From the sequence record PQ310662.1: DNA of 64,000 nt; one strand, given 5' to 3'. This DNA comes from Escherichia phage Mimir124. Under the pieces are notes generated by a model that was not told the DNA's origin, did no database searches, and worked only from the letters and a program-made list of their open reading frames with translations. Both the position numbers and the translations under genes were made by a program. The first letter of the stretch is position 1. Each line of letters opens with the position of its first letter. Positions 28,110 through 28,597 of this stretch are shown in pieces.

Positions 28110-28597
28110 TGTCCGAAGAAATTAAAATTCACTTCACCAACTACATTGGAACCAAGTGTGTAAATGGTTTCAAGATGAACAAGGAAACATATTGCAAACT
28201 TCGTGGCTGGGATGTGCCTGCTAATGAAGACCCATTAGAAGAAGGTTACTTAGTAGAGTACCCAGACTCTAAACCTAACCATGAGCAATTCCGTGGTTAT
28301 ATTAGCTGGTCACCAAAAGCTGCATTTGAGGCTGCATATTGTGACGTAACTAAGGGTTGTACTTTTGGTCACGCAGTAGAACTTTTGAAGTCTGGTTTTA
28401 GACTGTCCCGTAAAGGCTGGAATGGAAAAGGAATGTATATCACCTTGGTACCGGGTAAATATTGGTCCATGGCTAAACATGAGAACTCCATTTGTGAGAA
28501 ACGGGATTGGTTGGGCATCAAAACTGTTGATGACCAGTTTATGCCTTGGGTTCCATCCCAATCGGATGTATTAGCTGAAGACTGGGTAATTCTGTAG
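28110..28597 (+). CDS. DUF2829 (Tad2-like) domain protein with about 70-aa N-terminal extension; candidate immune-signal sponge
   Basis: C-terminal 90 aa: [30 protein letters not shown] ... PWVPSQSDVLAEDWVIL matches my recollection of the DUF2829 consensus (GWNGKGM, PW..SQ.DLLAEDW); RBS GAGGTAG before ATG 28110. Confidence 0.45.

What the first reader, a model, noticed from the sequence alone, without database searches (positions are those of the whole stretch)
28110..28597. Tad2-like (DUF2829) domain fused to an extra N-terminal domain: candidate immune-signal sponge
The C-terminal 90 aa ([30 protein letters not shown]...PWVPSQSDVLAEDWVIL) match what I recall as the DUF2829 consensus. That family includes Tad2, a phage protein reported to sequester Thoeris signalling nucleotides. 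This protein carries an additional N-terminal segment of about 70 aa not expected in minimal Tad2 proteins. It sits in a small accessory cluster between the tRNA region and the convergent terminator, next to a gp49-like gene and an HTH gene. It may be an anti-defence sponge with altered or extended ligand specificity.
Basis: partly seen in the sequence, partly recalled or inferred. Interest (0 to 1): 0.7.

Follow-up and report, generated by a model that had tools for sequence, protein, structure and literature searches.

The report
Two-domain Tad2-like phage anti-defence protein
This gene of an N4-like coliphage (the counterpart of phage N4 gene 49) encodes a protein whose back half is a clear relative of Tad2, a phage 'sponge' that soaks up bacterial alarm molecules. 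Its front half is a small, widespread, unexplained module that phages repeatedly join to five different kinds of sponge.

Summary
The ORF is window 28109-28597 (+), 162 aa; the stated start is 1 nt late. Residues 85-161 match Pfam Tad2-like/DUF2829 (E 6.8e-24) and solved Tad2 structures, and all four gcADPR-contact residues of SPO1 Tad2 are kept.

The gene is not a novelty in itself. It is the 87%-identical ortholog of phage N4 gp49, is annotated DUF2829/Tad2-like in GenBank, and its two-domain form exists in hundreds of protein clusters. It lies in the primase-to-vRNAP 'anti-signalling hotspot' of N4-like phages described in a June 2026 preprint. The 'gp49-like' neighbour is an Acb4-family sponge.

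The extra N-terminal ~80 aa form an autonomous small beta-rich domain with no Pfam or NCBIfam family. It is often a stand-alone ~73-aa protein, and it is fused to Tad2, Sequestin, Acb4, Lockin and RyR Tad sponge domains. It is homologous to the N-terminal domain of RyR Tad, which forms a strand-swapped dimer and showed no type I Thoeris inhibition alone.

Most likely function: a tetrameric sponge for Thoeris ADPR-derived signals, probably 3'cADPR, carrying an accessory or dimerising module. Nothing supports extended ligand specificity, and a HgmTad2-type cyclic-dinucleotide pocket is not expected. Interest is moderate and rests on the unexplained N-domain.

The parts
28109..28597 (+). Complete ORF, 162 aa plus stop; ortholog of phage N4 gp49 (two-domain N-domain + Tad2-like protein)
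   Evidence: ORF list and sequence. It is 87% identical to N4 gp49 over 158 aa. It lies in the same position, just before the vRNAP gene, in N4 and relatives. It gives a full-length match to phrog_872, E 3.7e-66.
28100..28103 (+). GAGG ribosome-binding site 5 nt upstream of ATG 28109
   Evidence: Read directly from the sequence. Ortholog N-termini agree with this start.
28130..28348 (+). N-terminal domain core (aa 8-80), signature Y-I-G-T-K ... R-G-W ... E-G-Y-L-V-E-Y ... G-Y-I-S-W-S-P-K..F-E..Y; a small beta-rich domain with two helices
   Evidence: No Pfam, NCBIfam or PADLOC family. AF2 pLDDT is about 90, with strands 10-13, 17-22, 46-51 and 64-69 and helices 25-32 and 70-76. Homologous to the N-domain of RyR Tad: hhalign prob 97%, E 1.1e-10; HMM E 1.6e-13. 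The same conserved residues appear whether the domain is alone or fused. dN/dS is 0.07-0.27.
28361..28591 (+). Tad2-like (PF11195/DUF2829) domain, aa 85-161
   Evidence: Pfam E 6.8e-24. PDB phmmer gives MoTad2 at 1.5e-17 and SPO1 Tad2 at 6.4e-13. Foldseek matches SPO1, Mo and Hgm Tad2 with prob 1.0 and TM (target-normalised) up to 0.85. dN/dS is 0.09-0.24.
28418..28423 (+). Codons W104-N105 of the G-W-N-G-K-G loop, equivalent to SPO1 Tad2 W25/N26 (gcADPR contacts)
   Evidence: Alignment with characterised Tad2 proteins. Residue roles come from the Yirmiya et al. preprint and the Li et al. preprint. At least 90% conserved in 126 two-domain homologs.
28547..28567 (+). Codons W147...S150-Q151-S152-D153, equivalent to SPO1 Tad2 W73...D79 and HgmTad2 W87, S90, T92, D93 (gcADPR contacts)
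27598..27990 (+). Context: upstream neighbour, an Acb4-family sponge homolog (PF13876), the N4 gp48 ortholog
   Evidence: Pfam E 2.9e-25. PF13876 is Acb4. N4 gp48 is Acb4 and activates Panoptes. It is 46% identical to N4 gp48.
28849..28872 (.). Context: GC-rich hairpin with T-runs on both sides, a terminator-like site between the rightward genes and the leftward vRNAP gene

Best explanation
The ORF is the Gamaleyavirus ortholog of phage N4 gp49. It is a two-module anti-signalling protein at the end of the rightward gene block, next to an Acb4 sponge gene, inside the primase-to-vRNAP anti-defence hotspot of N4-like phages.

Shown:
- The C-terminal 78 aa are a Tad2 domain that keeps the Trp/Asn/Trp/Asp residues contacting gcADPR in SPO1 Tad2 and HgmTad2.
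- The N-terminal ~80 aa are an independent, strongly conserved domain. It also occurs alone and fused to Tad2, Sequestin, Acb4, Lockin and RyR Tad domains.

Inferred:
- Like characterised Tad2 proteins, the C-terminal domains assemble into a homotetramer whose inter-protomer pockets sequester an ADPR-derived Thoeris signal. This keeps the ThsA effector silent so the phage completes its cycle. The signal is most likely 3'cADPR (1''-3' gcADPR) of type I Thoeris, given the S-Q-S-D motif.
- The N-domain most likely pairs protomers through a beta-strand-swapped dimer, as its homolog does in the RyR Tad crystal structure. It would act as an accessory or oligomerising module whose own ligand or partner, if any, is unknown.
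- A second cyclic-dinucleotide pocket of the HgmTad2 kind is not expected.
For: Tad2 membership:
- Pfam PF11195, E 6.8e-24.
- PDB sequence hits to MoTad2, SPO1 Tad2, HgmTad2/AcrIIA7 and SptTad2.
- The AF2 model has pLDDT 90 and pTM 0.75. Its C-domain matches 24 Tad2 chains with prob 1.0 and TM up to 0.85.

Ligand site:
- SPO1 W25/N26/W73/D79 and HgmTad2 W21/N22, S90/T92/D93 align to W104/N105/W147/S150/S152/D153.
- These residues are at least 90% conserved in 126 two-domain homologs.
- All six characterised Tad2s with S-Q-[T/A]-D inhibit type I Thoeris: SPO1, Hgm, Tad2_70, 71, 82 and 83. Those with S-[V/S/I]-[S/G]-D (MoTad2, Tad2_76, Tad2_68) inhibit type II.

Context:
- The neighbour is PF13876 = Acb4, and N4 gp48 Acb4 is experimentally active.
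- The N4-like hotspot is reported to hold Tad2, Tad3, Acb4 and Sequestin.
- Window layout: primase, AAA_24, SSB, RuvC-like, Acb4, this gene, then vRNAP.

Both domains are under purifying selection, with dN/dS 0.07-0.27.

N-domain:
- Homology to the RyR Tad N-domain, which forms a strand-swapped dimer in the crystal.
- Fusion census.
- An N-terminal appended domain is compatible with Tad2 tetramers, as full-length AcrIIA7 shows.
Against: - There are no experimental data for this protein or for N4 gp49 in the literature I could search.
- Only about half of the newly tested Tad2 homologs (7 of 15 with a fully positive record) inhibited any tested system. The one tested homolog with an N-terminal extension (Tad2_73, HgmTad2-like) was negative.
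- The third motif residue is Ser, not the Thr/Ala of proven type I binders, so specificity is uncertain.
- The RyR Tad N-domain is a divergent member that lacks R32, W34, E50 and K70 equivalents. Its dimer role and its inactivity may therefore not transfer.
- Stand-alone ~73-aa N-domain proteins are very common and are not necessarily next to sponge genes. This argues for more than a scaffold role.
- Oligomeric state could not be modelled with the tools available.
Confidence: 0.6

Rival explanations
1. Dual inhibitor. The N-terminal domain is itself an active anti-defence module, either a further sponge for an unidentified signal or a binder of a conserved host immune protein. On this reading, gp49-type proteins neutralise two targets, in the manner of Acb4-Tad2 or Acb4-Sequestin fusions.
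For: - Guilt by fusion is the argument that led to Sequestin. The N-domain is joined, in either order, to Tad2, Sequestin, Acb4, Lockin and RyR Tad domains, and to nothing else except one HNH/AP2 case.
- It is very common as a stand-alone 73-90 aa phage protein.
- The same polar and aromatic residues (K16, R32, W34, E40, E50, D53, N57, S66-W67-S68-P69-K70, Y77) are conserved alone and fused.
- dN/dS is as low as for the Tad2 domain.
- Between this phage and N4 it is more conserved (92.5%) than the Tad2 half (about 81%).
Against: [quoted passage not shown]
- No tested candidate in Tal et al. Table S2 carries the motif, so there is no positive datum.
- No pocket or oligomer could be modelled here.
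Confidence: 0.25
2. It is a sponge, but for a signal other than 3'cADPR. Candidates are His-ADPR (type II Thoeris), N7-cADPR (type IV Thoeris) or cUMP/cCMP (Pycsar), as found for MoTad2, Tad2_71 and Tad2_70.
For: - Tad2 family members show these alternative or multiple specificities.
- The closest solved sequence relative is MoTad2, a His-ADPR and cUMP binder, at E 1.5e-17 and 42-47% identity.
- The motif S-Q-S-D shares its third residue with MoTad2 (S-V-S-D).
Against: - The Gln of S-Q-x-D is shared with all proven type I inhibitors and is absent from the type II-only ones.
- The residues of the MoTad2 cUMP pocket are not given in the text I could read, so that pocket could not be checked.
- The sample is small.
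Confidence: 0.2
3. It is not a signal sponge in this phage. The DUF2829 domain would bind RNA or another macromolecule, as reported for full-length AcrIIA7 (tracrRNA), or serve phage nucleotide or DNA metabolism, given its place at the end of the replication gene block.
For: - AcrIIA7, a DUF2829 protein with an N-terminal head domain, is reported to bind tracrRNA.
- Some records label relatives 'anti-CRISPR protein'.
- About half of tested Tad2 homologs had no phenotype.
Against: - From general knowledge, E. coli does not use type II CRISPR-Cas9.
- Li et al. could not reproduce Acr activity for HgmTad2.
- The N-domain here is beta-rich and unrelated to the helical head of AcrIIA7.
- The gcADPR-contact residues are kept under purifying selection.
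- The gene's neighbour is a proven sponge family.
Confidence: 0.08

Closest known systems
Phage N4 gp49 (YP_950527, 'DUF2829 domain-containing protein') and its orthologs in Enquatrovirus, Gamaleyavirus and Klebsiella N4-like phages
   Same: It is 87% identical over 158 aa, has the same two-domain build, and occupies the same position as the last rightward gene before the vRNAP gene. There are 72 phage records with similar DNA.
   Different: In the window an extra small HTH-like ORF (28607-28837) and a 118-nt hairpin-containing spacer flank the gene, and N4 has neither. No functional data exist for either protein.
SPO1 Tad2 (PDB 8SME/8SMF/8SMG), the founding gcADPR sponge of type I Thoeris evasion
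   Same: Same Pfam domain and fold (TM up to 0.85), with 41% identity. The contact residues W25/N26/W73/D79 are all conserved.
   Different: SPO1 Tad2 is a single 89-aa domain, whereas this protein has an 83-aa N-terminal domain. The beta2-beta3 insertion is shorter (about 18 vs 24 aa), and the motif is S-Q-S-D rather than S-Q-T-D.
MoTad2 / ModTad2 (PDB 9EIB, 8V3E), a His-ADPR (type II Thoeris) and cUMP (Pycsar) sponge
   Same: It is the best PDB sequence match (E 1.5e-17), with 42-47% identity in structural alignments.
   Different: It is a single domain with motif S-V-S-D. Its specificity for His-ADPR and cUMP cannot be inferred for the window protein.
HgmTad2 / AcrIIA7 (PDB 8KBI-8KBM, 9KZR)
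   Same: It is a Tad2 domain with an N-terminal appended domain in the full-length protein, and it still forms a tetramer. The gcADPR residues W21/N22 and S90/T92/D93 are conserved.
   Different: Its N-terminal 'head' is two long helices, unrelated to the beta-rich N-domain here. Its 41-aa insertion and residues R31, S47, F70 and N85, which build the cGG/cGAMP pocket, have no counterpart here.
RyR Tad (gp68 of Pectobacterium phage vB_PatP_CB1), Fedorova et al., bioRxiv 10.64898/2026.06.04.730250
   Same: Its N-terminal domain is homologous to the N-domain here: hhalign prob 97%, E 1.1e-10 over 70 columns; HMM E 1.6e-13. A related RyR-domain phage protein gives a structural match with TM 0.74. 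It lies in the same N4-like hotspot and is a two-domain 'N-domain + sponge' protein.
   Different: The sponge module is an all-helical RyR Repeat12-like domain that forms a dimer, not a Tad2 tetramer. Its N-domain is a divergent member lacking several residues that are nearly invariant elsewhere.
Multi-sponge fusion proteins (Acb4-Tad2 of Pasteurella phage Pm86, Tad2-Sequestin, Sequestin-Acb4 of YH6/Ab09), Tal et al., bioRxiv 10.1101/2025.07.12.664507
   Same: They follow the same principle of welding small anti-signalling modules into one polypeptide. The N-domain occurs inside such chains, for example N-domain-Sequestin-Tad2 and Acb4-N-domain-Sequestin.
   Different: In those fusions every module is a proven sponge. 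Here only one module belongs to a proven family.

Membership tests
Tad2 / DUF2829 (Pfam PF11195) | Significant match to the family profile above Pfam's gathering score | tested here: met
   84.6 bits against a 25-bit cut-off, E 6.8e-24, residues 85-161 covering profile positions 2-72 of 73.
Tad2 / DUF2829 (Pfam PF11195) | [quoted passage not shown] | tested here: met
   The AF2 model (pLDDT 90) has helix 86-94 followed by strands 99-101, 110-114, 134-138, 144-146 and 159-161. Foldseek gives prob 1.0 to 24 Tad2 chains, with TM up to 0.85.
Tad2 / DUF2829 (Pfam PF11195) | gcADPR-contact residues (SPO1 W25, N26, W73, D79; HgmTad2 W21/N22, S90/T92/D93) | tested here: met
   W104, N105, W147 and D153 are identical. 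S150 is identical, and T92 is replaced by S152. These residues are at least 90% conserved in 126 homologs.
Tad2 / DUF2829 (Pfam PF11195) | Homotetramer with ligand pockets between protomers | not testable with these tools
   Only monomer prediction was available. It needs AlphaFold-Multimer/AF3 or SEC-MALS.
Tad2 / DUF2829 (Pfam PF11195) | Sequesters a Thoeris signal and rescues phage from Thoeris | not testable with these tools
   This is experimental. No data on N4 gp49-type proteins were found.
HgmTad2-type dual sponges (second cyclic-dinucleotide pocket) | Long 35-41 aa insertion between beta2 and beta5, and residues R31, S47, F70, N85 | tested here: not met
   The insertion is about 18 aa, and the aligned positions are V114, absent, absent and M145.
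AcrIIA7 (full-length, tracrRNA-binding) | Two-helix N-terminal head domain preceding the DUF2829 core | tested here: not met
   The N-terminal domain here has four strands and two short helices, whereas the head domain is described as two long helices.
N-terminal domain family of RyR Tad (unnamed; N-terminal half of phrog_872, phrog_9467, phrog_32732) | Sequence homology to the N-terminal domain of CB1 gp68 | tested here: met
   hhalign prob 97%, E 1.1e-10. HMM E 1.6e-13, with negative controls at 0.14-0.16. gp68 matches phrog_872/phrog_9467 over its N-terminal part.
N-terminal domain family of RyR Tad (unnamed; N-terminal half of phrog_872, phrog_9467, phrog_32732) | Beta1-strand-swapped dimer forming a five-stranded sheet | not testable with these tools
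   Reported for the RyR Tad crystal. The structure is not in the PDB copy searched, and no multimer modelling was available.
Lockin sponge family | N-domain is a Lockin | tested here: not met
   Lockin alone does not match the N-domain HMM (E 0.16). Lockin is reported absent from INPHARED phages, while the N-domain is present in 122 records. Two Lockin homologs merely carry the N-domain as an N-terminal fusion.
N4-like 'anti-signalling hotspot' gene set (Fedorova et al. 2026) | Located between the primase and the virion RNA polymerase genes, alongside SSB, RuvC-like and known sponge genes | tested here: met
   Primase (PriCT_1) at 20626-22836, AAA_24 at 22893-23645, SSB and RuvC-like orthologs at 23686-25043, Acb4 at 27598-27990, this gene, then vRNAP at 28879-39228.

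The most novel reading that the evidence does not exclude
The N-terminal ~75-aa 'YIGTK...GYLVEY...SWSPK' domain could be a new, widespread anti-defence module in its own right. It might be a further sponge for a signal nobody has assayed. Alternatively, it might be a universal partner domain that five unrelated sponge families (Tad2, Sequestin, Acb4, Lockin, RyR Tad) recruit, for example to bind a conserved host target or to evade decoy-based sensing. N4 gp49-type proteins would then be dual inhibitors, and the domain would serve as a bioinformatic beacon for finding new sponge families among its unknown fusion partners.
Probability: 0.3. Interest if true: 0.7.

Novelty: new member of a known kind. 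Interest (0 to 1): 0.42.

Why it matters
The Tad2 half adds little. It shows that G7C/N4-type coliphages carry an Acb4 gene and a Tad2-type gene side by side, which fits the recently described anti-signalling hotspot of N4-like phages.

The useful lead is the N-terminal domain:
- It is one of the more conserved small phage domains in this set. An N-domain-only profile found 1,434 protein clusters.
- It has no family name.
- It occurs alone or fused almost only to immune-signal sponges.
- The single experiment on a divergent member found no activity against one system.

Working out whether it is a universal oligomerisation handle or a new inhibitor would explain the architecture of hundreds of sponge proteins. 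It could also give a simple search handle for new ones. N4 gp49 offers a classical, genetically tractable model in which to test it.

Tried and rejected
1. Translating from the stated start of 28110 gave 10 stops. The frame starts at 28109.

2. I looked for the N-domain in Pfam, NCBIfam and PADLOC and found nothing. PHROGs has only unnamed families.

3. I tested whether the N-domain is Lockin and rejected it.

4. I asked whether it is Tad3. The Tad3-Tad8 source paper is not in the library. A profile search of all PDB sequences with an N-domain-only alignment found nothing. The authors who list Tad3 in the hotspot call the homologous RyR Tad domain a 'fold with unknown function'. It is therefore probably not Tad3, but this was not directly tested.

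6. I checked for an HgmTad2-type cGG/cGAMP pocket and rejected it.

7. I first assumed the P22/Sf6-like phage Louie protein labelled 'anti-CRISPR' was N-domain + Acb4. A local HMM scan showed it is N-domain + Tad2. N-domain + Acb4 combinations are supported instead by phrog_9467, by 8 PF13876 hits and by three-domain proteins.

8. I searched the supplements of Hadary et al. for N-domain motifs and found none among the tested proteins. Their Table S1 was truncated in storage, so absence from their tree cannot be claimed.

9. The 25 'N-domain + unknown C-terminus' proteins were scanned for new partner domains. Most are truncated, frameshifted or divergent Tad2, and a few have unassigned helical tails.

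10. The profile used for the 1.84-billion-protein search still carried C-terminal columns. Its architecture counts are therefore biased towards Tad2 and Sequestin. The N-domain-only search corrects this and shows stand-alone forms dominate the top hits.

11. The 'n / N/A / y' entries in Hadary Table S2 are ambiguous, so I counted only fully positive records.
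Full report
**What is there.** The window comes from an N4-like podophage. It carries a 3,449-aa virion RNA polymerase ORF at 28879-39228 on the minus strand. Its closest DNA relatives are Gamaleyavirus (G7C-type) coliphages at about 93% identity. The ORF in question runs from ATG 28109 to the stop at 28597. The ATG is preceded by GAGG at 28100-28103. The finding's start of 28110 is one base late, and translating from it gives 10 stops.

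**The Tad2 claim is correct.**
- Pfam PF11195 (Tad2-like, formerly DUF2829) matches residues 85-161 at E 6.8e-24, 84.6 bits against a 25-bit cut-off.
- phmmer against all PDB sequences returns MoTad2 (1.5e-17), SPO1 Tad2 (6.4e-13), HgmTad2/AcrIIA7 and SptTad2.
- An AlphaFold2 model built on 126 two-domain homologs has mean pLDDT 90 and pTM 0.75. Its C-terminal half matches 24 solved Tad2 chains with probability 1.0 and target-normalised TM up to 0.85.
- SPO1 Tad2 holds 1''-3' gcADPR with W25, N26, W73 and D79. HgmTad2 uses W21/N22 and S90/T92/D93. These align to W104, N105, W147, S150, S152 and D153 here, and they are at least 90% conserved across the two-domain family.

**No second pocket is expected.** HgmTad2 binds cGG and cGAMP through a 41-aa insertion and residues R31, S47, F70 and N85. 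The insertion here is only about 18 aa and those residues have no counterpart.

**Likely ligand.** Among characterised Tad2 proteins, the six with S-Q-[T/A]-D inhibit type I Thoeris. The three with S-[V/S/I]-[S/G]-D inhibit type II. The window protein has S-Q-S-D. I therefore lean towards 3'cADPR, but this rests on a small sample.

**The gene is not new.**
- It is the ortholog of phage N4 gp49: 87% identity over 158 aa, in the same position as the last rightward gene before the vRNAP gene.
- RefSeq labels N4 gp49 a 'DUF2829 domain-containing protein'. Other records say 'Thoeris anti-defense 2-like protein'.
- The whole protein matches phrog_872 end to end. More than 120 protein clusters (90% identity level) share the full two-domain build, down to 48% identity.
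PF13876 is the Acb4 sponge family. N4 gp48 is an active Acb4 that triggers the Panoptes system.
- Fedorova et al. (bioRxiv 10.64898/2026.06.04.730250, June 2026) describe the stretch between the primase and the vRNAP gene of N4-like phages as an anti-signalling hotspot holding Tad2, Tad3, Acb4, Sequestin and Bes1/Bes2.
- The window shows that layout: primase at 20626-22836, an AAA_24 protein, then the SSB and RuvC-like orthologs, then Acb4, this gene and vRNAP.

**The N-terminal domain is the informative part.**
- Residues ~8-80 fold confidently (pLDDT about 90) into strands 10-13, 17-22, 46-51 and 64-69 and helices 25-32 and 70-76.
- The domain has no Pfam, NCBIfam or PADLOC family.
- It has no sequence relative in the PDB.
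- A search with the N-terminal 83 aa returned proteins in which the domain precedes PF21825 or PF11195, or stands alone at 73 aa. In some it follows PF21825, so the order is free.
- PF21825 is Sequestin, a 3'cADPR sponge that Tal et al. discovered precisely because it is fused to Tad2 and Acb4.
- In their own tables the motif occurs about 94 times among Sequestin homologs and twice at the N-terminus of Lockin homologs. A local HMM confirmed the Lockin cases at E about 1e-13, with negative controls at 0.14-0.16.
- A census of 306 retrieved proteins gave N-domain-Tad2 204, N-domain-Sequestin 62 and N-domain alone 14. About 18 were three-domain chains with Acb4, Sequestin and Tad2.
- Pfam on 148 representatives found only Tad2 (93), Sequestin (56), Acb4 (8), RyR (1) and a single AP2/HNH case.
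- An N-domain-only profile found 1,434 clusters, and its top hits are mostly stand-alone 73-90 aa proteins. Two of these sit in SU10-like podophage contigs next to a dUTPase or portal gene rather than next to sponge genes.
- The same residues are conserved whether the domain is alone or fused.
- Both halves of gp49 are under purifying selection, with dN/dS 0.07-0.27.

**Link to RyR Tad.** Fedorova et al. characterised gp68 of Pectobacterium phage CB1 ('RyR Tad'). Its C-terminal RyR-like domain binds gcADPR. [quoted passage not shown] That domain showed no anti-type I Thoeris activity alone, and in the crystal it forms a beta1-strand-swapped dimer.

I fetched gp68 and found that its N-terminal domain is homologous to the one here:
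- hhalign probability 97%, E 1.1e-10 over 70 columns.
- It matches the same PHROG profiles.
- BFVD Foldseek links my N-domain model to a RyR-domain protein of Yersinia phage TG1, with TM 0.74.

The domain therefore accompanies five different sponge families. I did not find this stated in the papers I could read. The gp68 copy is a divergent member that lacks several nearly invariant residues, so its inactivity may not generalise.

**How it most likely works.** Shown: family membership, fold, conserved contact residues, context and selection. Inferred: the Tad2 halves form a tetramer that sequesters an ADPR-derived Thoeris signal and prevents effector activation. Also inferred: the N-domains pair protomers and act as an accessory module. 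Full-length AcrIIA7 shows that an N-terminal appended domain is compatible with a Tad2 tetramer. I put this explanation at 0.6.

Rivals:
- The N-domain is itself an inhibitor or sponge (0.25). This is not exclusive of the main reading.
- The ligand is His-ADPR, N7-cADPR or cUMP/cCMP rather than 3'cADPR (0.2).
- The protein is not a sponge at all (0.08).

Weaknesses:
- There is no experiment on any gp49-type protein.
- Only about half of the newly tested Tad2 homologs had a phenotype.
- No multimer modelling was available.

**Verdict.** The gene is a new member of a known kind; it is the known N4 gp49 gene family, and the locus type is already published. It deserves moderate interest because its N-terminal domain is a common, strongly conserved, unnamed module tied almost exclusively to immune-signal sponges, and its role remains open.

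Noticed in passing
window 27598-27990 (+): The Acb4-family neighbour (N4 gp48 ortholog) is only 46% identical to N4 gp48, while the adjacent gp49 ortholog is 87% identical. The two side-by-side sponge genes therefore evolve, or are exchanged, at very different rates.
   Followed up: partly
window 28598-28878: The slot between the Tad2-like gene and the vRNAP gene is variable. Here it holds a 76-aa weakly HTH-like ORF (28607-28837, phrog_9565). N4 has nothing there, and Shigella phage Moonfish has two other small ORFs. Most related records stop matching at about window 28590-28610; only 9 of 72 cover 80% or more of the 27400-28900 query.
   Followed up: partly
window 28071-28091: An 8-bp GC-rich hairpin (AAGCCCTCCTAGTGAGGGCTT) sits in the 118-nt spacer just upstream of the ORF's ribosome-binding site and overlaps the alternative GTG start. 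In N4 the two genes abut. In phage 24-32N a 249-bp ORF fills this space. PhAPEC5 annotates terminators in this stretch. It may be an internal terminator or attenuator between the two sponge genes, or a remnant of a lost gene.
   Followed up: no
window 24489-25043 (+): This 184-aa ORF is annotated in relatives as a RuvC-like Holliday junction resolvase (N4 gp46 ortholog), with no Pfam hit here. Fedorova et al. report that the RuvC-like Bes1 of Pseudomonas phage Ab09, found at the equivalent hotspot position, by itself counteracts CBASS and Thoeris by an unknown, non-sponge mechanism.
   Followed up: no
window 25900-27090: About 1.2 kb has no convincing ORF yet is 91-96% conserved in relatives. 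Only one tRNA is detected (tRNA-Ile, anticodon AAT, 27094-27168), whereas some relatives annotate extra tRNAs (Cys, 'OTHER') here. Weak sub-threshold tmRNA-like Rfam matches lie at 26388-26536. The region may hold decayed tRNA genes or an unrecognised RNA.
   Followed up: partly
window 28172-28174 (codon 22): The window protein has Lys at position 22, where N4, other orthologs and nearly the whole N-domain family have Pro (the 'P-M' of the A-x-P-M-T-R motif).
   Followed up: no
loci L006-L011 (metagenomic podophage contigs): Stand-alone 74-82 aa N-domain genes lie in SU10-like podophage genomes directly after a dUTPase gene or a portal gene, away from any recognisable sponge gene.
   Followed up: partly
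locus L004 2525-2995 (Escherichia phage Louie, P22/Sf6-like): A 156-aa protein after the lysis cassette, labelled 'anti-CRISPR protein', is another N-domain + Tad2 fusion. The label probably derives from AcrIIA7 similarity. The architecture thus also occurs in temperate P22-like phages at a moron position.
   Followed up: partly
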